Of a DNA stretch of 39,612 nucleotides, positions 1 to 39,612 are shown piece by piece. Made by a program: the position numbers and the translations under genes. How positions within the stretch are numbered: position 1 is the stretch's first letter; each line of letters begins with the position of its first letter. The DNA comes from a virus (taxonomy: Duplodnaviria; Heunggongvirae; Uroviricota; Caudoviricetes), in IMG/VR virus record IMGVR_UViG_3300022758_000169; one strand, 5' to 3'. Under the pieces are notes generated by a model. It was not told where the DNA came from. It saw nothing but the letters and a program-made list of their open reading frames with translations, and made no database searches.

Positions 1-357
1 TGGATATCACGCAGGCATTTGCTCACACCGACGATGTAGCAGAACATGGTGGTCAGCTCCGCCGCCGCGCCCGATACGTCGTGCCCGTCGTCCTGTAACT
101 GGTTCAGCAGATTCATCAGCAGTGAGTTCTCCGTCAGGCCGAGAACACCAGATGGGGAATGAATCAGGCTGCGGTAGCCGGGCTTCAGTGGGGCACTGTA
201 GGTTTTGTTCTCTATCTTCATCGCCTGCATTACTGCTGACGCCGTGGCGTTGGCTACCTGGTCGGCAACCATCTTTATGCGTTCTTCTTGCGGGAGCGAG
301 TTTTTTATGTAACTTCCGGTGCGGCGGATCTGAGGAAGAACCTCACCTGTAACCCAT
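1..357. repeat. inverted repeat, left copy (antirepressor C-terminal module); reverse complement of 39256..39612
   Basis: Direct comparison: window start tggatatcacgcaggca is the reverse complement of the window end; about 98 percent identity over 357 bp with roughly 8 mismatches. Confidence 0.9.
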
Positions 358-668
358 TTACGAAAGCGGTAGGGGATAGTGCCTGGTGTCACTGCGTCGC
401 GGCAGCGGAGGATCAGTGTGTAGAGGCCTGACTCGGAGATGATGTTGATCTCTTTTACTCGGCTGTCAAAAATTGCACGATGTTCATGCCCTATGTTGAA
501 CATAGACCTTTCATCATCATCCAGTTTTTCAAGTGCTTGGGTGACGTTTTGGATACGCAGCGCACTACAAACGTCTTGGGCTACAAACCATGGTTGGCCA
601 TCGATAATGATGGAACGGATAGGGTTAACAGATTCAAATTTGAAGATGGAAGTTTGAGCATTAGCCAT
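1..668 (-). CDS. antirepressor, BRO-N-type N-terminal domain plus shared C-terminal module; 3' end cut by window edge
   Basis: ATG at 668..666 preceded by GGAGAT; translation MANAQTSIFKFESVNPIRSIIIDGQPWFVAQDVCSAL...ISESGLYTLIL...FRKWVTGEVLPQIRRTGSY is a BRO-N-like pattern; reading frame open to the window start. Confidence 0.75.
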   Translation of the reverse strand, partial: MANAQTSIFKFESVNPIRSIIIDGQPWFVAQDVCSALRIQNVTQALEKLDDDERSMFNIGHEHRAIFDSRVKEINIISESGLYTLILRCRDAVTPGTIPYRFRKWVTGEVLPQIRRTGSYIKNSLPQEERIKMVADQVANATASAVMQAMKIENKTYSAPLKPGYRSLIHSPSGVLGLTENSLLMNLLNQLQDDGHDVSGAAAELTTMFCYIVGVSKCLRDI

Positions 669-823
669 GGTGGTTATCTCCACTTAGTGATTTTAATCAC
701 CACCGCAACGCCAATTACTGGTGGTGAACTGGACAAGGTTGGCGTACCGGCCTAAGTGGTACCGGCGTCCTTTCGGACCCCTGCCCAGCCCACCATAATT
801 CGGATATAGCTGTGCTTAACGCA

Positions 824-945
824 TAAAAAAACCACGTCTGGCGTGGTATGCGCCACTTAGTAACCCGGGACGCCAATCCCGGCACTGGATTTTGCCAGTG
901 CCCGATTACTATGGCACAAGAGGAGTGCGATGTAAATTTACCGAA
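824..945 (-). ncRNA. candidate structured antisense small RNA (c4-like), copy A
   Basis: Promoter TTGATT-N17-TATTAT on minus strand, predicted three-way-junction fold, hairpin loop UUGGCGU, terminator hairpin CCACG/CGTGG followed by U7; homologous to 38686..38806. Confidence 0.45.
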
Positions 946-952
946 AAGGTAA
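938..952. promoter_or_regulatory. operator-like palindrome TTACCGAAAAGGTAA
   Basis: TTACC-N5-GGTAA overlapping the predicted start of sRNA copy A. Confidence 0.5.
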
Positions 953-1099
953 TAATAGACGAAGATAAATATCAAAATCAACCATATTTGGTTAAGGTGT
1001 ATAAAAGAGCCACCAGCGAGAAATTGTACCGCGATGTAAAATAACGAGCATCTGCTGGCTTACAACCAGCGATGTTTCAAACTTGTCACTACTATCAAC

Positions 1100-1498
1100 G
1101 TGCCATTCCACGGCGTAGAACTTTATGTTGTCAATCACAACGGCGAACCGTACACCCCAATGAAACCTATCGTTGAGGGAATGGGTCTAGACTGGAAATC
1201 TCAACATAAGAAGATTTCTCAACGCTTCTCGAAGGGTATGGTGGAAATCACCATACCTTCTGCCGGAGGGGTGCAAGCCATGATTTGTATGGCTTTACGA
1301 AAATTGGCAGCTTGGTTGAACAGCATCAGTCCAAACAAAGTCCGCCCTGAAATCCGCGATAAGGTAATCCAGTATCAGGAAGAGTGTGATGATGTGCTCT
1401 ACGAGTACTGGACTAAAGGCCATGTGGTTAACCCGCGCAAAGCTAAAAAGGTGTTGCCGGGTAAAATCACGACTGAACAGCAGGAGGTATACACTTAA
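1100..1498 (+). CDS. antirepressor-like protein (recalled P22 antirepressor N-terminal domain pattern)
   Basis: ORF with motif GEPY...EGMGLDWKSQHKKI; divergent from sRNA/antirepressor copy A. Domain assignment from memory. Confidence 0.45.
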   Translation: MPFHGVELYVVNHNGEPYTPMKPIVEGMGLDWKSQHKKISQRFSKGMVEITIPSAGGVQAMICMALRKLAAWLNSISPNKVRPEIRDKVIQYQEECDDVLYEYWTKGHVVNPRKAKKVLPGKITTEQQEVYT

Positions 1499-2107: not shown

Positions 2108-4771
2108 TTAACGCATCACCGGATCCACTTGGTTTATTAGTGGCGCAATCCAGAACAGGTTATTGCCGGGTATCAGGGTTCGGACATTATGCACAATACG
2201 ATCACCGGCATCACCATTCAACACTCCTGAGGTCACATCAATGATGCTATCCGCAAGACCAAATGACGGTCCGAATAGAGATCCTACGAATCCACGACTG
2301 GCATACCTGGACTGTGTGCCAGTGCCAAATAAAGCCCCCAGCCCAACAGCACCACCAGTCGCCTTTTCAGCCATGTTGTTATATTCCATCAATGGCCCAA
2401 GAATACCGGATCTATCTATACCCTCAAGCACCAGCTTCTCTGGTGACCAGTCAACATTTTTCCCTTTCGATGCTTCTTTAAGCGCATAGACCAGTGAGCC
2501 AAGAGCAATCTGAAATGCAGTGCCATAATAAAATTGCGCAGTTCCTTCCTGTAACCCACCAAGTAGCGCACGGTTGTATGAAGCCGTTGTGAATGATTTA
2601 AACTGAAATATCGTTCGCCCCATTGGAGTACTCGCCCATAAAGGTGTGTCACCAATACCGGGGGTGATGATAGTGTTATTAACGTCTTTCAGAACCGCTG
2701 ACTGGAATACTCCGGCAACGTACTGATCGTCCCATTTATCAAAGTTACCAATGTGCCATCCATCAATTACCTCACCATGTTTCTCGAACTCACTGCGAAT
2801 ACGCGCAGCCATATTGTCGTTGATACCGAGTTTTGCCATGCGACGTGCAGAAAACGCACCGGACAAAATACCGTCTGACGTGAGCATTCCGTTCATGGAT
2901 TTGTTTATGTCATTAAATCGATCCATGAGTGTCAGCTTGCCGAAGGCATCAGTAATTCGCTCCATTCCTGCTTCGACTGCTGTTGTCCTGGAAGAACTGT
3001 CAACAAGATCACCAATTGCACGAGAACGTGAATGTAGTACAGCTTCCAATCCAATCCCCATCTTCAACATATCTTCTTTGCTGGCCTTAAATGCCGGTGA
3101 TTGGGATATCTGAGAAGCATAGCCTTTCATGGTGTTACGGAAACCATTAACCATAACCCCTCTGGCCAGATCTGGAATAGCTGATACTGTCATTCCACCG
3201 AGTTTGGTCGTGAAGTTCACATCCCGCAGAAAAGCGCCAGCACGAACAAAAAACGAAGACGGATCATCAGGCATCCCATATGTACCAACAAGACGATCGC
3301 GTAATGCTGTTATGTCTCTGAGATCATTTGCTCTTGATTTTGAAAGTCTGGACTGTTCTTTCCGTAATTCCTTTTCGTACTTTCGCATTAATGAATCGAG
3401 TTTACCCTGAGGAACAACTTCACCATTGCTCTCATAACGTGCTTTCAGATTTGCCACACTTTCGTCATATTTCGCCTTTATTTTTTCAGGCACTTCCCGT
3501 AACAGACTGTCATATTCGTCCTCAATTAATTGCAGACGCTCTGTCATAGTTCGTTTGCCAAATGTTCTCGTCAACTCAATTTCTGCTGCCGCTTCACGGA
3601 TATGACGTTGTAGAACGTAATTCACATCACTTTCGAGATAATCCCTGATAAGACTATCAGGCACATTTAATGTTCTTTCTTTCGTACTACCTGCGGCTTT
3701 TACAGAAAATACGCTGACAAAATCCTGTGGAACCTTAGCACCAGTAATTTTATTAATTACGATATCCGCTGCAATTTCAGCATCCTCAGGATCCAGTGTT
3801 TTATTGCCTCTCGACCACCAGTCAACCAAAATACGTCGAAATTTATCGCGTTCACTGATTATTTTTCCAACTTTATATATACGTGGGAAATAGCTTGCCT
3901 GGCCTAATGCTTTCAGTTCTTCATCTGGAGGCAATAAACCAAGCTTTTGCATTTCAACCTTCACCCGATTTAATACAGTTCGCATCGCCTGCGCCGTTTC
4001 CTGAACAACAGGATTAGCATGCACATCACCGCTTCGCATAGCATTCCCAACCTGCTGACGAAATGAATCAAAACTCATGTCACCACCATCAGCTTTATAC
4101 TTTGCGTATGCCTGTTTATTTCCGACAACAACAGCAGCTTCTTCACGCTGCCATCCACGTGTACGGGTTTCTACAGCTACCGGTGTTTCAATCCCCCTTT
4201 CATTTCCTTTAAGGGTGAAATTATTTTCGGCTAACTCCAGCGTTGTTTTTCGCACTGTCTTGGACGGAGACTCCATTAACCTTGTCAAAGGAGTAAGATA
4301 GCTCCCTGCTTTCCATGCAGCCTTTCCAACCACCCCACCGGAAACAGGGGTTAAATCATCCAGAGTCGCTGTATCAATTTTCATAGCACCAACACTACCA
4401 CCATCAGAAAGCGAAGCGGCAGCCCTGTCAGTCGCTGATGTAATGCTCATATTATCAAGAGCATCAGCAACCTCACGCGTGGCTGCAGCCCGGACGGATG
4501 GCGAAAGCGCAACACCAGCACTGGCAAACACGCCGCTCATCATCGCACCCGCTGCAATGTGAGCGGCACTTTCACCCCATGAGCGTGTTATTTGCTGATT
4601 ATTCAGCACAACCTCGCTTAATGCTGTACCGGCTGCACCAATCGCAATCTGTGAGCCAATACGCGCCAGTGCCCCTCCTTGAGCACCGGGGATAAACATT
4701 GACGCAACAGTAACCGGATCCATTCCCGCAGCAATACTGGCAAGGGTTCCAACTACGCCAGCATCAGACAA
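2108..4771 (-). CDS. large internal virion / ejection protein (887 aa)
   Basis: Long ORF at the distal end of the virion operon, Gly/Ala-rich N-terminus; position analogous to T7-like internal core proteins. Confidence 0.55.
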   Translation of the reverse strand: MSDAGVVGTLASIAAGMDPVTVASMFIPGAQGGALARIGSQIAIGAAGTALSEVVLNNQQITRSWGESAAHIAAGAMMSGVFASAGVALSPSVRAAATREVADALDNMSITSATDRAAASLSDGGSVGAMKIDTATLDDLTPVSGGVVGKAAWKAGSYLTPLTRLMESPSKTVRKTTLELAENNFTLKGNERGIETPVAVETRTRGWQREEAAVVVGNKQAYAKYKADGGDMSFDSFRQQVGNAMRSGDVHANPVVQETAQAMRTVLNRVKVEMQKLGLLPPDEELKALGQASYFPRIYKVGKIISERDKFRRILVDWWSRGNKTLDPEDAEIAADIVINKITGAKVPQDFVSVFSVKAAGSTKERTLNVPDSLIRDYLESDVNYVLQRHIREAAAEIELTRTFGKRTMTERLQLIEDEYDSLLREVPEKIKAKYDESVANLKARYESNGEVVPQGKLDSLMRKYEKELRKEQSRLSKSRANDLRDITALRDRLVGTYGMPDDPSSFFVRAGAFLRDVNFTTKLGGMTVSAIPDLARGVMVNGFRNTMKGYASQISQSPAFKASKEDMLKMGIGLEAVLHSRSRAIGDLVDSSSRTTAVEAGMERITDAFGKLTLMDRFNDINKSMNGMLTSDGILSGAFSARRMAKLGINDNMAARIRSEFEKHGEVIDGWHIGNFDKWDDQYVAGVFQSAVLKDVNNTIITPGIGDTPLWASTPMGRTIFQFKSFTTASYNRALLGGLQEGTAQFYYGTAFQIALGSLVYALKEASKGKNVDWSPEKLVLEGIDRSGILGPLMEYNNMAEKATGGAVGLGALFGTGTQSRYASRGFVGSLFGPSFGLADSIIDVTSGVLNGDAGDRIVHNVRTLIPGNNLFWIAPLINQVDPVMR

Positions 4772-4797
4772 TAAACGTCTGTCTTCATTTTCATCAT

Positions 4798-5127
4798 CTA
4801 TCTGCTGCTTAATCCACGCCGTTTCCTCTGGCGATCGGGAATCTGCAAATTTCGCCCCCAGTATTCATAACCGTGCAACTCATTTTTATCAGCATATGGG
4901 TTATAACCTTCGACCGGTTCAAACTGTCTGGCAGGACGGAAAAAACCAGCCAGAATATTGTTCTGTCGTATTGCTGCGGCAAGCAATGAAGGCTCTTTGG
5001 GACGAGGTTCAGGGTTCTTACCTTCTGGCGGATGCACATCAAAACTCTGTTCATCAGGTTCAGGAATGGCGAGACCAGCAGAAATAAATCCGTTATTGTT
5101 TGATTCAGATACAGGATAGAACGGCAT
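4798..5127 (-). CDS. small virion-operon protein, translationally coupled
   Basis: ATG overlaps the upstream stop in TAATG at 5129..5125; 109-aa Pro-rich ORF. Confidence 0.4.
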   Translation of the reverse strand: MPFYPVSESNNNGFISAGLAIPEPDEQSFDVHPPEGKNPEPRPKEPSLLAAAIRQNNILAGFFRPARQFEPVEGYNPYADKNELHGYEYWGRNLQIPDRQRKRRGLSSR

Positions 5128-7835
5128 TATTTAGATCCCCACGAAAAGTAATCTTTAAATTTGTCCATACGTTCGTTATGCAGGCGCTGATACTGCTCAT
5201 CCAGAGCGCGATGCTTGTCTTTGAAGTTTCGTATAGCCTGTCCACGCATAATTTCTTCCTGCTCGTGCTGCTCCCGTTCCTGCTGCATTTTCTTATAAGG
5301 TTCCCAATCTTCTAGTGATGGCCCCCAGCGCATCTGTCTTCCATGCTTGTCATAAAATAAATCATCCCTCGTAATACCATCTTTATCTTTTGTTCTGATC
5401 ACAACTGAATAAAGCTTATCTCTCGGAGTTGATAAGTCAGGAACGAGAATCAACTCACCTCCAACCAGTGAGCGTGGCTTATTCAGTCCCAATGCACCAG
5501 CCTCAGTTGAAGGTCGGTTAAATGAAGGAGCCGGTTTATGTAAGTCATCGCCATACATGATTTTTTCTTTTTCAGCCTTCCATTGCGCTGCAATCCAGCC
5601 TGACGGCCCATATTGATAAAGCGCCTCCGGTGCATATTTCATAAACTGTGCTTCCCCGTTGACCTCGCTGATACTCCAAGTGCGGGCTATCTGCTGGTTG
5701 GTCATTTGCTTCGCTACGTCAGCGTTACCACCAGCAAGGCGATAGTTAACGTCATACAGCATCTGATAGTCATTGCGAAAGAGCGCTGCTTCCGGTGTCT
5801 GGTCATCCGCAGACGGATCCCAGCGAAGCCAGTGAGTCATATTACTGACAGCAGAATTGGCTGCGCTGTCACGCTCTTTTTTGTATTCTCTTGTACTCTG
5901 AACAGATGAGAGCTGCGCCCTTAGTGCATCTGTCTGGTTGTATGTCTTACTCTGCGCTTCCACAATAGCAGCATCTGAAGACATCCCTGCATCAGTTAGT
6001 TGCTTAACAGTCAGATAAAAACCCTGCATATCCTTCGGCATATTTCCAATAGATGCATTGTCTGTTTCATATAACCGACTAAACAGTTCCGCCGCATTTT
6101 TAACCACTTCCTGATTGCTGGATCGGGATACTGCTGAAAGCTGCGTGATGACCTGCGAAGGCATTATGCCAGTCTGAGCCACAAGCCGAACAACCCCATC
6201 ATGAGTGGAGGCATCATTAATACGAAAGTTCTGCGCCATTTCTGTGTAATCAGCAGCTTTCTGCATTGACTTGTTGCTTGGGTCTAATTTTTCACCTATT
6301 GTCAGCGCCTCATTAAATCTGCGTGAATCCCGTTGCGCCTGAATTGCTTCATTTGATCTCTGAAGCAATGCAGACAATTTTCCGTAAGCATCGAGTTTTA
6401 ACGCATAGTGAGGATCGTTAACCTCAGGCTTCACTTTCTGCATTTCTTCTTGCTGCTGAGAAGGAGGCAAATACTGAATTGTCTGGAATATTCTCGCGTT
6501 ATCAATCGCTATATCCAGTTGATTGATTATTTTATCTGCGTTTTTTCCATACCCCCTGATGATGGTCTCCTGAGCCGGTATATAATCTGGAACCTCACCG
6601 TTATATAGCTGGGCCATGGTGTTATTAATAGCTGGCTCAAGCTGTTCTAATATTAACTTCCTTTGCTTTTCTATCTGACTATTAGCAAGGTTATCTATTT
6701 GATAAATAGTCAGCGGATCCATTCCAGTTTTATTTTTTCTATATCGGGAAAGCCACCCTTGTGTTTCTGATGGAAGATTTCGGATAAATTCTTCTTCTGA
6801 TATTTCACCTTTACGTGGATCACCGACTTTGGCGATCAGTTTATCCACGTTACCCATCCCCCAGTTATATGCTGCTCCGGTCAATATTTCGGAACCGTAC
6901 TTACCATACAGTTGATTTACATAGTCACTGGCGAGCATTTCATGCTGTTGTTCGTCCGTAGGGTTGTATTCAACGCCACGTTTGGCCGCCAGTTCTTTCC
7001 CTGTGCCCGGCATTAACTGGTATTTCCCCTGGGCCCTCTCTCCAGAAGATGTTTTCGGTCCTTCAAGAATACTACCATCAGGATTAAAATGACGATCACC
7101 TGATTCAACAAGGCGTATGGCACGCATGTCCATGCCTCCAGAATCATTTTTCTGAAACTGACCATTTAACCATCCTTCCGGATTAGCAGCGGCATAATTC
7201 TTCGCCCGCATTTCTGTGGCACTGCGATCATCACTTTCTATTTCTTCCAGAATGCGTTCTTGTGACCATCCCCTGGCTGCTCCATATCTGGCAATGGCTA
7301 CCATTCTGGAATTTCTGGCTAAAGTGGCAGTTTGCGGGTCATTCCAGGCATCCGCTTCATTTTGTATCCATAATTTTCTCGTTGCCTGATATTGCTCATC
7401 TTCATAGGCATTTGTCTGCCCTATCTCATGTCTGAGAACTCCAGTACTGAACTGAATTTTCTGTGTTCTGGCTTGTTGCAAAAACATATTTCTTGCTGCT
7501 TCATCAGTCAATGAAGCAGCTATTTCTTCCACATCCTGATCAAATCCAGATATGTACTCTTGCCCCTTACCAATCGCATTTTTGCCTTGTTGTGCATAAA
7601 AACCGGTTTGAGGGTTATAAAGACGTTCATTGCTGCGCTGATTAAGCTGAAGGATGGCATCCTGAGACAATGCAACATTCGCTTTCTGCCTGGCTTCACC
7701 ATATGCCACCGCATACTGATCTGCGACATTCGCCAGCACCTGACCTGCCTGAGGAACATCGAAGGTTTGAAAACCACCGGTTTGCACACCACGACTTTGC
7801 ACCTGGCGTCCGGATGTAGTAGGAACAACAGGCAT
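5127..7835 (-). CDS. internal virion protein with lytic transglycosylase (SLT-like) motif
   Basis: 902-aa ORF; motif GERAQGKYQLMPGTGKELAA...AAYNWGMGNV resembles the SLT catalytic region. Confidence 0.7.
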   Translation of the reverse strand: MPVVPTTSGRQVQSRGVQTGGFQTFDVPQAGQVLANVADQYAVAYGEARQKANVALSQDAILQLNQRSNERLYNPQTGFYAQQGKNAIGKGQEYISGFDQDVEEIAASLTDEAARNMFLQQARTQKIQFSTGVLRHEIGQTNAYEDEQYQATRKLWIQNEADAWNDPQTATLARNSRMVAIARYGAARGWSQERILEEIESDDRSATEMRAKNYAAANPEGWLNGQFQKNDSGGMDMRAIRLVESGDRHFNPDGSILEGPKTSSGERAQGKYQLMPGTGKELAAKRGVEYNPTDEQQHEMLASDYVNQLYGKYGSEILTGAAYNWGMGNVDKLIAKVGDPRKGEISEEEFIRNLPSETQGWLSRYRKNKTGMDPLTIYQIDNLANSQIEKQRKLILEQLEPAINNTMAQLYNGEVPDYIPAQETIIRGYGKNADKIINQLDIAIDNARIFQTIQYLPPSQQQEEMQKVKPEVNDPHYALKLDAYGKLSALLQRSNEAIQAQRDSRRFNEALTIGEKLDPSNKSMQKAADYTEMAQNFRINDASTHDGVVRLVAQTGIMPSQVITQLSAVSRSSNQEVVKNAAELFSRLYETDNASIGNMPKDMQGFYLTVKQLTDAGMSSDAAIVEAQSKTYNQTDALRAQLSSVQSTREYKKERDSAANSAVSNMTHWLRWDPSADDQTPEAALFRNDYQMLYDVNYRLAGGNADVAKQMTNQQIARTWSISEVNGEAQFMKYAPEALYQYGPSGWIAAQWKAEKEKIMYGDDLHKPAPSFNRPSTEAGALGLNKPRSLVGGELILVPDLSTPRDKLYSVVIRTKDKDGITRDDLFYDKHGRQMRWGPSLEDWEPYKKMQQEREQHEQEEIMRGQAIRNFKDKHRALDEQYQRLHNERMDKFKDYFSWGSK

Positions 7836-8872: not shown

Positions 8873-11343
8873 CAGAATCCCCCAACAGTAAGGCGAGGAA
8901 TAACGGCAAGAACAGACAGTGGCAACGGGTCAAGCTGACGGATTCTTACACGTCCGTTTTTGCCCCAGTTACTGTCCAGTTTCACTTCTACTTTTCCGGT
9001 AGCATCATCAACAGGATCATCGTAGAACTCGAATTCACGCTGTGGATATTCGTACCATTTACCGCCGGGCGTAGTCGCCCAGATGCCGCGACTGGCATTC
9101 ACAACCAGAGTAACGGACGGGATCACCTGTTTTTTGTCCAGCAGCGTTTCCTGTCCGTTAATGTTGATATCCAGTGTTTCGAATTCAGCAGTTATTGGCA
9201 GGCCGATGTGCACAACAGCCCCAGGTGATTCCAGCGTGACGGCACCTCCGGAAACCACTTTCTGTGGTTCCACGTTCGCATCAGAGAGAATGTTTACGGT
9301 CTGGCCTTCAAGATGAGACAGGCCTCCAAATGTCCGGCGCGCCATCTGCCAGTTCGTGGTGGCCACATTCCTGAGGGATGGCGGGACGTTCCTGTTAGCA
9401 CGAACCACTACAGCGGTGTTGCTGGTTACAGAAATAATGTCGCAACGTAATTCTTTTGACACCTCATCGCCAGTATCAGGATCAGTTCCGGTATAAGGGA
9501 ACTGTAGTTGCGCGCCGACATCACTACTGGTGAAGTACGCACCACCAGAAACACTGATTGTATATTCCGCGCGGTAATCCCATTCGCCAGAACCACCAGT
9601 GATGATCATCGTTCTGTCAGACGTATTTCTTCCATCATAGCTAAGGCCAGAATCAACAAAGAAAGCATCTTCATCGCTGGTAAATAAACGGCTGGACAGT
9701 CGCTCGATGTATCTCACTGTTTGCCCTTTAACGGTTCGGTTAACGACGAAATACACCGCATCTTCATTGCCTTCGCTGATACTGCATGTGCTTTCATATT
9801 TTCCGGTACTGGATTGTGGTGCCCATGCAAAAACCTGCTGATCACGCAAATAGGTCATCACCAGTAATTTACCGTCATCACGAATGCAGAAGGCACTGGA
9901 GTAAGGGACAATAGAGAAGCACCAGTCAACAATGCTGTGCTTCTGAAAAAGATGATTGGCAAGGATAGTAAGGTCGTTCCCCTGATAGCCGTCAACATCG
10001 AATGAGTAGGCCAGATCACGGACAACACTGCCTTTCTCCTGGACGAACAGAGCAATATTCGCCACGGCAATTGGTGGGACATTGCTCGAGCCATTTGATC
10101 CCTGAGAGCTGAATGCAAATGATGATGGGGTTAACACTTTGTTCTGGTCGCCGGTGATGACGTACTCACCTCCGGAAGTCAGCGCCACCAGCGAACCAAC
10201 ATCAATCAGGTGGCGGATCTCATTAACCTGACGCCCGGCATAGGTGTAGATAATTCTATCGTCATCCTGCGTAGGATTGCTTTTGCCAAAATCCTTATAA
10301 TCCCCAGTACGGCTGGCCCAGATAGTCTGAGGGAACGCAGTCGATGCGGCGAAGTAAAGACGCTGTTGATAATAAACAACAGTGCCAGGATAACCATTAA
10401 CACTGTTCCAGGCATATTTAGCCCATTTATAGCTGGCATTATCCTCGCCAACGACCTGCGAAGGAATATAGGAAATCACCTCGGCAGTTGCAGTAGTTCC
10501 ATTTGCAGCAGTGATACGGGCAATGCCAAAACCACTGTGCAGATATTCCCACTCAATGCCAGTATCATCATCACCGGATCCACCCCAGCCATCCCATGAT
10601 GTGCCTTCTGTATGCGAAGGGCGCAAAGTACCTGTTTTGCCTGCTGTAACGGCGCGATAGTAGTTACTGTCTGCACGGCGAATATCGCCAATTGACGTAC
10701 TCTTACTGGTTTCCCATACCGGCACAGAATCCACTGCAGGCTGTTCCAGATAGAACAATTTGCCTACCTGCTCCGCGCCAAAAATAGAGGCGCTTGCCGT
10801 TAACGTAATTGTCCCGGTGCTGGCGCTGGCATAAACCGTCACTGACTCGTCAATATTGATATCTTCAAATGGCCCGTTCTTCGTTACCACATCAACCAGT
10901 TGCCAGTTGTCATGCGCGTAGCGGCGCAACTCTTTCGGCGGGTATGCCGGGTGAACCAGCGTAAGCACGTCGGCGCTTTGCGTGAATTTAATTCGGAACA
11001 GATCGGCTTCAGTATATGGCGTGGCAATTTCATAAATAACATTGCTGCTGTTCAGCACCAACGCACCATCTTTGATAACGCGCATGTACTGGTGCCCGAA
11101 CTCCAGAGCATAGGTCTGAACCGTCGAGAACTGGAACGGGATCAGGCGGCATTTCCGATTTGGGTATTTGGCGGCACCGACAAAACGCGTACCAGGTCGA
11201 TTCTCAACTCCGCCATACTGCCGCACGATAAAGTTATCGCACTTGCGCAATGCCACCTGGTACTTCGCCATGTCAATACGACCGTACAACGACGGTCCAA
11301 TCTCACCACCGGCAAAGCTGGGCTGGATCCAACTGATAGCCAT
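8872..11343 (-). CDS. tail tube / nozzle protein (T7 gp12-like position and size)
   Basis: 823-aa ORF immediately downstream of a gp11-like gene; start overlaps upstream stop. Confidence 0.55.
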   Translation of the reverse strand: MAISWIQPSFAGGEIGPSLYGRIDMAKYQVALRKCDNFIVRQYGGVENRPGTRFVGAAKYPNRKCRLIPFQFSTVQTYALEFGHQYMRVIKDGALVLNSSNVIYEIATPYTEADLFRIKFTQSADVLTLVHPAYPPKELRRYAHDNWQLVDVVTKNGPFEDINIDESVTVYASASTGTITLTASASIFGAEQVGKLFYLEQPAVDSVPVWETSKSTSIGDIRRADSNYYRAVTAGKTGTLRPSHTEGTSWDGWGGSGDDDTGIEWEYLHSGFGIARITAANGTTATAEVISYIPSQVVGEDNASYKWAKYAWNSVNGYPGTVVYYQQRLYFAASTAFPQTIWASRTGDYKDFGKSNPTQDDDRIIYTYAGRQVNEIRHLIDVGSLVALTSGGEYVITGDQNKVLTPSSFAFSSQGSNGSSNVPPIAVANIALFVQEKGSVVRDLAYSFDVDGYQGNDLTILANHLFQKHSIVDWCFSIVPYSSAFCIRDDGKLLVMTYLRDQQVFAWAPQSSTGKYESTCSISEGNEDAVYFVVNRTVKGQTVRYIERLSSRLFTSDEDAFFVDSGLSYDGRNTSDRTMIITGGSGEWDYRAEYTISVSGGAYFTSSDVGAQLQFPYTGTDPDTGDEVSKELRCDIISVTSNTAVVVRANRNVPPSLRNVATTNWQMARRTFGGLSHLEGQTVNILSDANVEPQKVVSGGAVTLESPGAVVHIGLPITAEFETLDININGQETLLDKKQVIPSVTLVVNASRGIWATTPGGKWYEYPQREFEFYDDPVDDATGKVEVKLDSNWGKNGRVRIRQLDPLPLSVLAVIPRLTVGGF

Positions 11344-17159: not shown

Positions 17160-17236
17160 GTGGCATTAGCTCAGTTGGACAGAGCAACCGCCTTCTAAGC
17201 GGTTGGTCGCAGGTTCGAATCCTGCATGCCACGCCA
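17160..17236 (+). tRNA. tRNA-Arg (anticodon UCU), phage-encoded
   Basis: Manual cloverleaf: acceptor GTGGCAT/ATGCCAC, D-stem GCTC/GAGC, anticodon stem ACCGC/GCGGT with loop CTTCTAA, T-arm GCAGG-TTCGAAT-CCTGC, discriminator G, encoded CCA. Confidence 0.85.
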
Positions 17237-29564: not shown

Positions 29565-29888
29565 AATCACGCCTGACGAATCGCGATTATCTCGCTATTG
29601 GTATTGCAGAGATTGCTGGACTCAATGGCGCATGATTTGACAATGCCGCCAGAGCTATCGCATACTGACCGCACTAGAAAACAAACAGCGGTCATCCGCA
29701 CCCGATAGCTTTGCGGCTTTTTTATGCCTGCAATCTGGCATAGTCACATCCGTACAAAGGTCGGGTGGAGAGGCGTAATACAACACCCGAAAGGGGAATA
29801 TGCCCGGAGCTACTGTTTGTGCTCTAGTTGACACCCGATCACCAGCTACTAACTGGTTTTCGTAACTAAAAACAAACAGGAGGTCATC

Positions 29889-30545
29889 ATGACCAGTCAA
29901 CTCATCCCCGTATTCAACGGCACTATATCTAACGAAACAGCCCTACTTTGTAATGCCCGCGATCTGCACGCTTTTTTAGGTGTTAAAAAGGTGTTTGCAG
30001 CATGGATTACAAATCGCATATCAGAATACGAATTCATTGAAAATCAAGACTATATTTTGCTTTCCAATTTGGGAAAGCAAACATCTGGTAGAGGCGGCCA
30101 CAACCGCAAAGAGTACCACCTCACCCTTGATACAGCCAAAGAGCTGGCGATGGTCGAGCGTAACGAAAAAGGTCGCCAGGTGCGACGCTACTTCATTGAA
30201 TGCGAGAAACGTTTAAGACAACAAGAAACAAAAGTGGAGAAGGTCTTGTCAGGCTTCATGCCCGCCATTATGGAGGCGATCAAGCTGGAAGACAAAAAAG
30301 AATACAGTGCCCCACTGAAGCCCGGCTACCGCAGCCTGATTCACTCGCCGTCTGGTGTTCTCGGCCTGACGGAGCACTCACTGCTGATGAATCTGCTGAA
30401 CCAGTTACAGGACGACGGGCACGACGTATCGGGCGCGGCGGCGGAGCTGACCACCATGTTCTGCTACATCGTCGGTGTGAGCAAATGCCTGCGTGATATC
30501 CAGACTCACGCGGAGTACATCAACGACAAGGCAGGGTTCTTCTGA
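29889..30545 (+). CDS. antirepressor (AntA/KilA-N-like N-terminal domain plus shared C-terminal module)
   Basis: Strong SD AGGAGG; C-terminal 68 aa nearly identical at DNA level to the two terminal copies. Confidence 0.7.
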
Positions 30546-38678: not shown

Positions 38679-38693
38679 TTACCTTTGCGGTAA
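38679..38693. promoter_or_regulatory. operator-like palindrome TTACCTTTGCGGTAA overlapping the sRNA promoter
   Basis: Promoter TTGATT (38651..38656) - N17 - TATCAT (38674..38679); the site covers the predicted start. Confidence 0.5.
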
Positions 38694-38806
38694 ATTTACA
38701 TCGCACTCCTCTTGTGCCATAGTAATCGGGCACTGGCAAAATCCAGTGCCGGGATTGGTCTCCCGGATTACTACAGAGGCACATATGCCGCATAAGCGGT
38801 TTTTTT
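38686..38806 (+). ncRNA. candidate structured antisense small RNA (c4-like), copy B
   Basis: Predicted fold: outer stem 38713..38718/38778..38783, stem 38721..38727/38766..38772, hairpin 38729..38750, hairpin 38751..38764 with loop UUGGUC, then terminator hairpin plus U7 (38800..38806). Confidence 0.5.
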
Positions 38807-38960
38807 ATGTGTAAAGCGCACCTATTCTATGGTGGGCTGTGTGGGGGCACCGAAAGGTGCGCCGGGTTCCTTTGTAGCCGGTAAGACCAACTCTGCACAG
38901 TTCACCACCATCTGATTGGTCTCAGCGGTGGTGATTAACCTAACTACAAAGGTGATCGCC

Positions 38961-39612
38961 ATGAATACCAAACCTTCCATCTTTTCCTTTGAGTTATCCT
39001 GCCAGATCCGTATGTTCATGATTGACGGAGAACCTTGGTTTGTCACCAAAGATGTGTGCAATGCTTTGAATATTGATGTTACACAAGCGAGAAAACTTGA
39101 TAAAAAAGGGCTGGAACAAAAAGGGGGTCTGTATTCAATACAGACCCCTGGTGGAATACAAGAACTATCCATCGTTTCAGATCAGGTCTCTACATCCTTA
39201 TTCTGCGTTGCAAAGAGGCAATGACTGAGGGAACGAGAGCATTCAGATTTCTTGAATGGGTTACAGGTGAGGTTCTTCCTCAGATCCGCCGCACCGGAAG
39301 TTACATTAAAAACTCGCTCCCGCAGGAAGAACGCATAAAGATGGTTGCCGACCAGGTAGCCAACGCCACGGCGTCAGCAGTAATGCAGGCGATGAAGATA
39401 GAGAACAAAACCTACAGTGCCCCGCTGAAGCCCGGCTACCGCAGCCTGATTCATTCGCCGTCGGGTGTTCTCGGCCTGACGGAGCACTCACTGCTGATGA
39501 ATCTGCTGAACCAGTTACAGGACGACGGGCACGACGTATCGGGCGCGGCGGCGGAGCTGACCACCATGTTCTGCTACATCGTCGGTGTGAGCAAATGCCT
39601 GCGTGATATCCA
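38961..39612 (+). pseudogene. antirepressor (BRO-N plus shared C-terminal module), frame-disrupted by a 1-nt deletion near 39182; 3' end cut by window edge
   Basis: BRO-N frame (MNTKPSIFSF...) stops at 39224; homology continues in the +2 frame (SGLYILILRCKEAMTEGTRAFRFLEWVTGEV...); copy A has GAGTCAGGC where this copy has GATCAGGT. Confidence 0.55.
39256..39612. repeat. inverted repeat, right copy; a third direct copy of the last ~200 bp lies at 30302..30501
   Basis: Direct comparison with 1..357 and with 30302..30501 (about 3 mismatches over 200 bp). Confidence 0.9.

What the first reader, a model, noticed from the sequence alone, without database searches (positions are those of the whole stretch)
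665..1000. Second inverted copy of the sRNA-antirepressor module with compensatory loop and target changes
The minus-strand region 824..945 is homologous to 38686..38806, with promoter TTGATT-N17-TATTAT and an operator at 938..952. In this copy the hairpin-2 loop is UUGGCGU (complement of plus 870..876) instead of UUGGUCU. The predicted target in the leader of this copy's antirepressor has changed in step: ACGCCAA (complement of plus 739..745) instead of AGACCAA. The leader hairpin loop has changed too (AUUGGCGUU versus GAUUGGUCUC). Three elements therefore covary between the two copies while the flanking stems are conserved, and the one stem difference is a G-U wobble (GGUUACU versus GAUUACU). 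This is the pattern expected for two antisense-RNA immunity modules of different specificity carried by one element.
Basis: seen in the sequence. Interest (0 to 1): 0.85.

Follow-up and report, generated by a model that had tools for sequence, protein, structure and literature searches.

The report
Two P1-type antisense antirepressor locks
This phiV10-like E. coli phage carries two inverted copies of the known P1/P7 "c4" antisense-RNA switch that keeps an antirepressor gene silent, and the copies have different matching sequences, so each should control only its own gene; this is a neat example of a mechanism known since 1990, not a new one.

Summary
Every motif is at the stated coordinates, except that the promoter spacer is 18 nt, not 17. 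Both copies pass Rfam thresholds as an IsrK sRNA followed by a C4 antisense RNA, upstream of a Bro-N antirepressor gene.

The IsrK hairpin-2 loop is P1's a1 site and the leader hairpin loop is a2. Here b1 lies in IsrK, b' is the C4 hairpin loop, and b2 covers the ant Shine-Dalgarno sequence. The b set also differs between copies in a matched way. P1 versus P7 shows the same six-site pattern.

In 124 related modules, a1/a'/a2 were concordant every time. There are two a alleles and at least 9 switches on a tree. There are 21 b' loop variants, each with matching b1 and b2.

Published Gifsy-1 compensatory mutants (G28:C162, G31:C159) fall inside a1:a'. In that system IsrK activates rather than represses.

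The two-module layout is genuine: complete E. coli genomes and viral contigs carry it. I file it as a new member of a known kind, of moderate interest.

The parts
952..981 (-). L module distal sigma-70-like promoter, TTGATT-N18-TATTAT
   Evidence: Consensus match only; not tested for function.
938..952 (.). L module operator TTACC-N5-GGTAA, between the distal -10 and the proximal -35
   Evidence: One of 16 sites (up to 1 mismatch) in the window, against 0.77 expected by chance.
908..936 (-). L module proximal promoter TTTACA-N17-(TG)CATAGT. The predicted start is about 901, the first base of the IsrK match, as in Gifsy-1 and P1 P1c4.
825..901 (-). L IsrK-like sRNA, equivalent to the P1 a1b1 leader. 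Hairpin 1 is 901-882. Hairpin 2 is 881-866, with the a1 loop UUGGCGU at 876-870. b1 CUAAGUGG is 860-853. The intrinsic terminator is 846-825.
   Evidence: Rfam isrK 67.7 bits (gathering 50). c4-a1b1 44.1 bits (gathering 46.7). Coordinates.
717..800 (-). L C4 antisense RNA. The b' hairpin is 765-747 (loop UACCACUUAGG). a' ACGCCAA is 745-739, in the single-stranded junction. The conserved AUGGUGG 5' end is the RNase P site motif in P1.
   Evidence: Rfam C4 66 bits (gathering 45). Fold.
666..726 (-). L ant leader. The hairpin is 726-698, with a2 UUGGCGU at 714-708 in its loop. b2 CUAAGUGG(AG) at 687-680 overlaps the Shine-Dalgarno sequence. The ATG is 668-666.
1..668 (-). ant2, a Bro-N antirepressor gene that runs off the window end. 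It is 237 aa and intact in L089.
   Evidence: Pfam Bro-N 8.9e-20; L089 ORF
38650..38723 (+). R module control region. The distal promoter is TTGATT 38650-55 / TATCAT 38674-79 (spacer 18). The operator is 38679-38693. The proximal promoter is TTTACA 38695 to CATAGT 38723.
38730..38806 (+). R IsrK-like sRNA. The a1 loop UUGGUCU is 38755-38761. b1 CUACAGAGG is 38771-38779. The terminator is 38787-38806.
   Evidence: Rfam isrK 74.7 bits; coordinates
38825..38912 (+). R C4 antisense RNA. The b' hairpin is 38862-38881 (loop GUUCCUUUGUAG). a' AGACCAA is 38884-38890.
   Evidence: Rfam C4 78.6 bits; fold
38903..38963 (+). R ant leader. The hairpin is 38903-38933, with a2 UUGGUCU at 38916-38922. b2 CUACAAAGG at 38944-38952 overlaps the Shine-Dalgarno sequence. 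The ATG is 38961.
38961..39612 (+). ant1, a Bro-N antirepressor gene. In this window it is frameshifted near 39180, with a stop at 39224. It is intact (230 aa) in E. coli A_5 and in L089.
29681..29891 (+). Third, analogous module. b1-like ACAAACAG is 29681-29688, followed by a terminator. sRNA-Xcc1 is 29759-29848, with loop CUGUUUGU. b2-like ACAAACAGGAGG is 29872-29883. The ATG at 29889 starts an AntA-type antirepressor that shares the C-terminal domain of ant1 and ant2.
   Evidence: Inverted repeat 1-213 vs 30290-30502 at 96%.

Best explanation
Each end of the window carries one copy of a P1/P7-type immI switch, in the enterobacterial IsrK-C4 form.

Anatomy. A repressor-controlled promoter region transcribes three elements in order:
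1. An IsrK-like leader RNA. It presents site a1 in the hairpin-2 loop and site b1 just after it, and ends in an intrinsic terminator.
2. A C4 RNA, made by read-through. Site b' is in a hairpin loop and site a' is in a single-stranded junction.
3. The ant leader. Site a2 is in a hairpin loop and site b2 lies over the Shine-Dalgarno sequence of a Bro-N antirepressor gene.

Mechanism (inferred from P1 and Gifsy-1). C4 pairs through a' and b' with a2 and b2 and blocks ant translation, which keeps the prophage repressor safe. The short IsrK-like RNA carries the same a and b sequences as the leader. It competes for C4 as an anti-antisense or decoy, or refolds the read-through transcript, and so turns ant on.

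Specificity. The two copies differ at both sites in all three partners:
- L: a = UUGGCGU/ACGCCAA, b = CUAAGUGG/CCACUUAG.
- R: a = UUGGUCU/AGACCAA, b = CUACA(A/G)AGG/CCUUUGUAG.
They are therefore predicted to be orthogonal, like P1 versus P7.

Shown: the anatomy, family membership, covariation across relatives, and the genuine two-module layout. Inferred: repression by C4, RNase P processing, activation by IsrK, orthogonality in vivo, and control by the phage repressor.
For: Family membership:
- Rfam places isrK and C4 above gathering score in both copies.
- P1's own record annotates Oc4, two promoters, a1, b1, c4, a2, b2, then icd/ant.
- P1's a1b1 region hits c4-a1b1 at 51 bits and isrK at 35 bits.

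P1/P7 parallel:
- P1 vs P7 differ by 2-nt changes in each of a1, b1, b', a', a2 and b2. This is the same pattern as L vs R.

Population survey:
- In 124 modules from viral contigs, a1/a'/a2 are concordant 124 of 124 times.
- Both a helices are 100% paired in 67 distinct rows.
- At least 9 a-allele switches occur on a tree built from the masked alignment, and all are concordant.
- There are 21 b' loops. Cognate helices average 8.6-8.7 bp; non-cognate ones average 4.3-5.3 bp.
- Four b' types occur with both a alleles, although the a and b sites are interleaved along the transcript.

Predicted orthogonality:
- Duplex energies are -22 to -24 kcal/mol for cognate pairs and -8.5 to -12.6 for crossed pairs.

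Experimental support from Gifsy-1:
- The Gifsy-1 isrK locus scores isrK 79.3, C4 69.0 and c4-a1b1 48.1 bits.
- Its published compensatory pairs G28:C162 and G31:C159 map into a1:a'. G31 is one of the two positions that differ between L and R.
- IsrK-G28A and IsrK-G31A are inactive in trans.

Function of the downstream gene:
- Overexpressing the Bro-N ORF4 of the related phage ZX5 cut lysogens about 1000-fold (PMC9782041).

The layout is real:
- It occurs in complete E. coli chromosomes and in a contiguous IMG/VR contig.
Against: - Nothing here was tested on these RNAs. Expression, processing and trans action are inferred by homology.
- There is no icd-like or orf45-like coupled ORF. The ORF that starts at the C4 AUG stops after 14 codons (L) or 28 codons (R). 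So the translational-coupling step described in P1 and Gifsy-1 does not apply.
- The Gifsy-1 authors explain activation by refolding of an mRNA, not by titration of a C4 repressor. The two literatures have not been reconciled experimentally.
- ant1 is frameshifted in this window, so the R module may guard a dead gene here, or the shift may be a sequencing error.
- Only two a alleles exist in the sample.
- Co-resident modules in L081 differ only at a, and in L021 and L115 only at b. Whether one site is enough for orthogonality is unknown.
Confidence: 0.75

Rival explanations
1. The terminated sRNA (IsrK-like) is the repressor. Its hairpin-2 loop pairs with ACGCCAA/AGACCAA in the ant leader and silences ant.
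For: The a1 loop and the ACGCCAA/AGACCAA element are complementary and covary perfectly. Pairing of these exact positions was shown by compensatory mutants in Gifsy-1.
Against: In Gifsy-1, IsrK in trans raised anrP translation 139-fold rather than repressing it. The "target" lies inside an RNA that scores as C4, which is the repressor in P1/P7. This model also leaves a2, b2 and the b' loop without a role.
Confidence: 0.1
2. The elements act only in cis. a1/b1, a'/b' and a2/b2 are alternative pairings within one read-through transcript, forming a structural switch. No diffusible regulator exists, so the two copies differ by drift plus intramolecular compensation, not by selection for orthogonality.
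For: The C4 3' strand CACCACC is shared with the leader hairpin (726-717 overlap), so mutually exclusive folds exist. Gifsy-1 structures A and B are cis alternatives.
Against: P1 c4 acts in trans and defines heteroimmunity. Gifsy-1 IsrK acts in trans from a plasmid. Concordance across at least 9 allele switches fits either view and does not separate them.
Confidence: 0.1
3. The second copy is an assembly artefact or chimera. The contig ends in a roughly 127-bp perfect inverted repeat, so the two modules might belong to two different prophages.
For: The window begins and ends inside a 431-nt inverted repeat. From reading, the outermost roughly 127 nt look identical, which is typical of a contig broken in a repeat.
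Against: Both modules lie inside the contig, not in the repeat. The same convergent pair is contiguous in the complete chromosome of E. coli A_5 (L002), where both modules were verified by Rfam. Three further complete genomes match at least 80% of the left end. The pair is also contiguous in IMG/VR loci L009, L021, L081, L089, L111 and L115. L089 bridges the window ends with 1357 bp.
Confidence: 0.03

Closest known systems
immI of phages P1 and P7 (c4 antisense RNA, a1/b1, a2/b2, icd-ant; Citron & Schuster 1990, cited; P1 record NC_005856)
   Same: - Same order of parts: repressor operator, two promoters, a1, b1, terminator-like hairpin, C4 with b' loop and a' junction, a2 in a hairpin loop, and b2 over the ribosome-binding site.
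- Same Rfam C4 family.
- Same kind of specificity difference between variants: matched changes at both sites in all three partners.
   Different: - The guarded gene is a Bro-N antirepressor read directly from b2, with no icd ORF and no Ant1/Ant2.
- The host phage is a phiV10/epsilon15-like integrating podovirus, not a plasmid prophage.
- Two heterospecific modules sit convergently in one genome, whereas P1 and P7 carry one each. Some P1-like records also showed two matching places, which I did not examine.
Gifsy-1 isrK-orf45-anrP locus (Hershko-Shalev et al. 2016, PMC4825925)
   Same: - Same Rfam isrK and C4 pair upstream of an antirepressor.
- The a site is identical to the window's L copy (UUGGCGU/ACGCCAA).
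- The pairing verified by mutants is the a1:a' helix.
   Different: - Gifsy-1 has a 45-codon ORF through C4 that is coupled to anrP. Here that ORF stops after 14 or 28 codons, and b2 lies at the ant Shine-Dalgarno sequence.
- The b sequence differs (AUCACCG).
- Gifsy-1 has a single module.
P22 immI (Arc, Mnt, Ant, sar antisense RNA)
   Same: An antirepressor kept silent in a lysogen, partly by a small antisense RNA. The close relative TL-2011b carries a P22-type Arc-Ant-sar cassette where this window has its L module. A truncated P22_AR_N gene remains at 1100-1498.
   Different: sar is a true cis-antisense transcript from the opposite strand. C4 is encoded on the same strand and pairs through two short sites.

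Membership tests
C4 antisense RNA (Rfam RF01695; P1/P7 c4) | Covariance-model score at or above the curated gathering score, with a full-length match | tested here: met
   66.0 bits (800-717, minus strand) and 78.6 bits (38825-38912, plus strand), against gathering 45; model positions 1-87 of 87
C4 antisense RNA (Rfam RF01695; P1/P7 c4) | Long outer stem enclosing a tetraloop hairpin and a second hairpin (b' loop), followed by a single-stranded a' junction | tested here: met
   CM alignments and MFE folds of -43.6 kcal/mol for both copies
C4 antisense RNA (Rfam RF01695; P1/P7 c4) | a' and b' complementary to a2 and b2 downstream on the same strand, with b2 over the ribosome-binding site of the first gene | tested here: met
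   L: ACGCCAA/UUGGCGU and CCACUUAG/CUAAGUGG(AG). R: AGACCAA/UUGGUCU and CCUUUGUAG/CUACAAAGG. Covariation in relatives.
C4 antisense RNA (Rfam RF01695; P1/P7 c4) | A second copy of the target sites (a1, b1) upstream of C4 | tested here: met
   a1 lies in the IsrK hairpin-2 loop and b1 follows directly. Rfam c4-a1b1 scores 44.1 bits, E = 5.6e-10, just under gathering 46.7. Covariation.
C4 antisense RNA (Rfam RF01695; P1/P7 c4) | C4 is cut from the primary transcript by RNase P and acts in trans as a repressor of ant | not testable with these tools
   The AUGGUGG 5' motif (the GGU site in P1, per PMC5320573) is invariant in 68 aligned modules. There are no expression data.
C4 antisense RNA (Rfam RF01695; P1/P7 c4) | A small upstream ORF (icd) whose translation is blocked and is coupled to ant | tested here: not met
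   No ORF lies between C4 and ant. b2 sits at the ant Shine-Dalgarno sequence itself.
C4 antisense RNA (Rfam RF01695; P1/P7 c4) | Promoter under an operator of the prophage's main repressor (Oc4 in P1) | tested here: inconclusive
   TTACC-N5-GGTAA lies at both module promoters. It also flanks the HTH repressor gene 25083-25667 on both sides. There are 16 sites against 0.77 expected. Binding was not tested.
isrK Hfq-binding sRNA (Rfam RF01394; Gifsy-1 IsrK) | Covariance-model score at or above gathering; two 5' hairpins plus an intrinsic terminator | tested here: met
   67.7 and 74.7 bits, against gathering 50. Terminators found.
isrK Hfq-binding sRNA (Rfam RF01394; Gifsy-1 IsrK) | The middle hairpin pairs with the downstream C4/orf45 region (G28:C162, G31:C159) | tested here: met
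   The homologous positions are the a1:a' helix, which is 100% paired in 67 distinct relatives.
isrK Hfq-binding sRNA (Rfam RF01394; Gifsy-1 IsrK) | orf45 is translated through C4 and coupled to the antirepressor start (AUGA overlap) | tested here: not met
   The ORF from the conserved AUG stops after 14 codons (L) or 28 codons (R), well before the ant AUG. This is my own reading of the sequences.
isrK Hfq-binding sRNA (Rfam RF01394; Gifsy-1 IsrK) | Hfq binding and trans-activation of the antirepressor | not testable with these tools
   Known only from Salmonella experiments.

The most novel reading that the evidence does not exclude
Enterobacterial temperate phages may use a two-site RNA address code. 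In this sample there are two a alleles and at least 21 b alleles, and the three partners at each site are kept matched.

This phage stacks three mutually orthogonal antisense locks: two IsrK-C4 modules and one sRNA-Xcc1 module. They sit on three antirepressors that share one C-terminal domain. That arrangement would make the lysogen immune to antirepressor attack by several otherwise heteroimmune relatives.

As a corollary, IsrK would be the diffusible form of P1's unexplained a1/b1 sites, acting as an anti-antisense decoy. sRNA-Xcc1 would be an unrecognised C4 analogue.
Probability: 0.35. Interest if true: 0.6.

Novelty: new member of a known kind. Interest (0 to 1): 0.4.

Why it matters
The finding gives a natural pair of heterospecific c4-type switches, possibly a trio, inside one small, tractable E. 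coli phage. Single-module relatives are already isolated: HEMP4 carries the L type and EC.W1-9 carries the R type. RNA-based immunity specificity could therefore be tested directly.

The survey shows that the P1/P7 principle is a widespread, polymorphic and combinatorial code in Stx, Gifsy, APSE and phiV10-like phages.

It also links two literatures that do not cite each other's model. In the P1 literature c4 is a repressor. In the Gifsy-1 literature IsrK is an activator. The link suggests a role for P1's a1/b1 sites.

None of this changes the known mechanism.

Tried and rejected
- **Assembly artefact.** Rejected after finding the same convergent pair in complete genomes and in contiguous viral contigs.
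- **Formal pair counts for the b helices.** Counts on the MAFFT alignment were blurred by indels: only 41-61% of cells paired for b':b2. I relied instead on a landmark-based extraction. That method picks the best helix and is therefore somewhat generous; non-cognate controls were scored the same way.
- **Co-resident modules always differ.** This held in 8 of 8 loci, but they give only 4 distinct combinations. With roughly 5-10% chance identity, this is not statistically meaningful.
- **An a-type site for the sRNA-Xcc1 module.** I found none. The upstream loop UUUGACA is not complementary to the Xcc1 junction.
- **The P1 genome paper (PMC523184).** It is not held, so P1 details come from the GenBank annotation and secondary papers.
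- **No protein-homology, structure or metagenome searches.** The question is about RNA.

Full report
**What the window is**

Structural genes at 7.9-25 kb are 97-98% identical to Escherichia phages TL-2011b, HEMP4, ZX5 and phiV10, the epsilon15-like podoviruses of genus Uetakevirus. The 39.6-kb window is almost a whole genome.

Its two ends form an inverted repeat: 1-431 vs 39182-39612, 92% complementary. The outermost roughly 127 nt look identical. The repeat consists of the 3' halves of two outward-reading Bro-N antirepressor genes.

This is not an artefact:
- The complete chromosome of E. coli A_5 carries the same pair of convergent Bro-N genes, each behind an isrK and C4 pair. Three further complete genomes match at least 80% of the window's left end.
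- IMG/VR locus L089 bridges the window's ends with 1357 bp. That stretch encodes a hypothetical protein, a YafO-like toxin and a small membrane protein.

**Check of the observation**

The only correction is the promoter spacer, which is 18 nt rather than 17. The GGUUACU/GAUUACU difference lies in the 3' strand of a stem with UAGUAAUC that encloses both 5' hairpins. A-to-G gives a U-G wobble, and both MFE folds keep the stem.

**What the elements are**

Rfam scores each copy above the curated threshold as two families in tandem:

| Family | L copy | R copy |
|---|---|---|
| isrK | 901-825, 67.7 bits | 38730-38806, 74.7 bits |
| C4 antisense RNA | 800-717, 66 bits | 38825-38912, 78.6 bits |

The P1 record annotates the same order: operator Oc4, promoters P2c4 and P1c4, a1, b1, c4, a2, b2, icd, ant. 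Rfam finds C4, c4-a1b1 and a sub-threshold isrK match on P1's a1b1 stretch. In P1 nomenclature:
- The hairpin-2 loop is a1.
- ACGCCAA/AGACCAA is a'.
- The leader hairpin loop is a2.

The C4 hairpin loop (b') is CCACUUAG in L and CCUUUGUAG in R. It is complementary to two sites:
- b1, just after hairpin 2 of IsrK: CUAAGUGG in L, CUACAGAGG in R.
- b2, over the ant Shine-Dalgarno sequence: CUAAGUGGAG in L, CUACAAAGGUGA in R.

So six elements differ in a matched way, not three. An alignment of P1 with P7, the classical heteroimmune pair, shows the same thing: 2-nt changes in each of a1, b1, b', a', a2 and b2 in an otherwise 96% identical region.

**Is it more than chance?**

I scanned viral contigs for the hairpin-2 frame with two free loop bases. 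This gave 124 parsed modules and two false matches.

The a sites:
- Only two a alleles occur, CG (60 modules) and UC (64 modules).
- a1, a' and a2 agree in 124 of 124 modules.
- On a 68-sequence alignment, both a helices are 100% paired in 67 distinct rows. Double compensatory changes occur at two positions in 29 rows. No shuffle out of 500 reached the observed covariation score, and slid controls drop to 24-56% paired.
- On a neighbour-joining tree built with the a and b columns masked, the a allele switches at least 9 times, always concordantly.

The b sites:
- There are 21 different b' loops. Each has a cognate b1 and b2 helix of 8.6-8.7 bp on average. Non-cognate combinations average 4.3-5.3 bp.
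- Four b' types occur with both a alleles. The order along the RNA is a1-b1-b'-a'-a2-b2, so the two sites assort independently while each trio stays matched.

This is what selection for pairing predicts.

**Mechanism**

P1 and P7 provide the repressor logic. C4 is cut out of the transcript by RNase P and binds a2 and b2. It blocks the ribosome-binding site, and four changed bases make the two phages heteroimmune.

Gifsy-1 provides the other half.
- Its isrK locus scores as isrK, C4 and c4-a1b1.
- If +1 is placed at the first base of the isrK match, the published compensatory pairs G28:C162 and G31:C159 are base pairs of a1:a'. A107 is the AUG at the 5' end of C4.
- IsrK in trans raised anrP translation 139-fold. 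IsrK-G28A and IsrK-G31A were inert.
- G31 is one of the two positions that differ between the window's copies.

From this I infer three things:
- C4 is the repressor of each ant gene.
- The terminated IsrK-like RNA is an anti-antisense activator or decoy.
- The two copies do not cross-talk. Predicted duplex energies are -22 to -24 kcal/mol for cognate pairs and -8.5 to -12.6 for crossed pairs.

Two points differ from both models:
- There is no icd or orf45 coupling ORF here.
- The C4 3' strand (CACCACC) is shared with the a2 hairpin, so alternative folds exist.

Antirepressor function for the Bro-N gene is supported by overexpression of ORF4 in the related phage ZX5, which cut lysogens about 1000-fold.

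**Control and context**

The operator TTACC-N5-GGTAA lies between a distal and a proximal promoter in both copies. It occurs 16 times in the window against 0.77 expected, including on both sides of an HTH repressor gene at 25083-25667. This resembles P1's dispersed C1 operators. Binding is inferred, not tested.

Each module type exists alone in sequenced phages: the L type in HEMP4 (98.9%) and the R type in EC.W1-9 (99.6%). TL-2011b has a P22-type Arc-Ant-sar cassette in place of the L module.

Eight loci carry two modules. The pair always differs in a, in b, or in both. These are only four distinct combinations, so that is not statistically meaningful.

**Novelty**

The parts, the families and the specificity principle are all known. 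The tandem isrK and C4 pair next to a Bro-N gene, with a'/b' matches, has been noted in APSE phages. I found no description of the following in the searchable literature:
- Two heterospecific modules in one phage.
- The combinatorial a-by-b polymorphism.
- The identity of IsrK with P1's a1b1 leader.

I therefore rate this a new member of a known kind, with moderate interest.

Noticed in passing
window 29681-29891: A third antisense lock. sRNA-Xcc1 (RF02221, 64.8 bits) has a hairpin loop CUGUUUGU. The loop is complementary to ACAAACAG upstream (before a terminator) and to ACAAACAGGAGG, the Shine-Dalgarno sequence of an AntA-type antirepressor. In viral contigs I found 62 distinct Xcc1 loops, and many have a 7-8 nt complement both upstream and over the downstream Shine-Dalgarno sequence. 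sRNA-Xcc1 therefore looks like a C4 analogue, but Rfam does not place it in the C4 clan.
   Followed up: partly
window 938, 1524, 16823, 19968, 19986, 22660, 22722, 24624, 24962, 25012, 25724, 25786, 31872, 37467, 38586, 38679: The palindrome TTACC-N5-GGTAA occurs 16 times (up to 1 mismatch), against 0.77 expected. It flanks the HTH repressor gene 25083-25667 on both sides and sits at both module promoters. It looks like a dispersed operator regulon, similar to P1's C1 operators.
   Followed up: partly
window 39100-39224: ant1 differs from the intact A_5 and L089 gene by indels of +1, +2 and -1, two of them in A or G runs. This gives a frameshift and a stop at 39224. It is either a pseudogene or a sequencing error.
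   Followed up: partly
window 1-431, 30290-30502, 39182-39612: Three antirepressor-type genes have different N-terminal domains (Bro-N, Bro-N, AntA). They share a near-identical C-terminal stretch of about 75 aa (92-96% at the DNA level) with no Pfam match. It may be the part that recognises this phage's repressor.
   Followed up: no
L002 (E. coli A_5) 3700-7000 vs window ends and L089: In A_5 the R-type module lies on the P22_AR_N/tail side. In the window and in L089 the L-type module lies there. The segment between the inverted promoter/IsrK repeats therefore exists in both arrangements, as expected from recombination between inverted repeats.
   Followed up: partly
window 1100-1498: A truncated P22_AR_N antirepressor gene (Pfam 5e-44). 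It is a remnant of the Arc-Ant-sar cassette that TL-2011b has intact at this position.
   Followed up: partly
L125 (Gifsy-1) 132-330; L123 (P1) 10218-10312: The Gifsy-1 isrK locus passes the Rfam thresholds of isrK, C4 and c4-a1b1. P1's a1b1 leader gives a 35-bit isrK match. IsrK and the c4-a1b1 motif appear to be the same element, although Rfam keeps isrK outside the C4 clan and the IsrK paper's main text never uses the phrase "bacteriophage P1".
   Followed up: yes
L028, L097, L109, L110, L113: A subfamily of modules has an insertion of about 35 nt between the IsrK terminator and C4. The insertion contains GGTATAAT, an extended -10-like element, so C4 may have its own promoter there.
   Followed up: no
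phage records JL22, Ro157c2YLVW, RCS47, 673R5, D6: Several P1-like phages show two matching places for the P1 c4-icd region, so double immI modules may also occur in P1 relatives.
   Followed up: no
window 17160-17233: A tRNA gene (73.3 bits) lies between the structural and terminase genes. Related O157 typing phages annotate a tRNA-Arg in the corresponding matched region.
   Followed up: no
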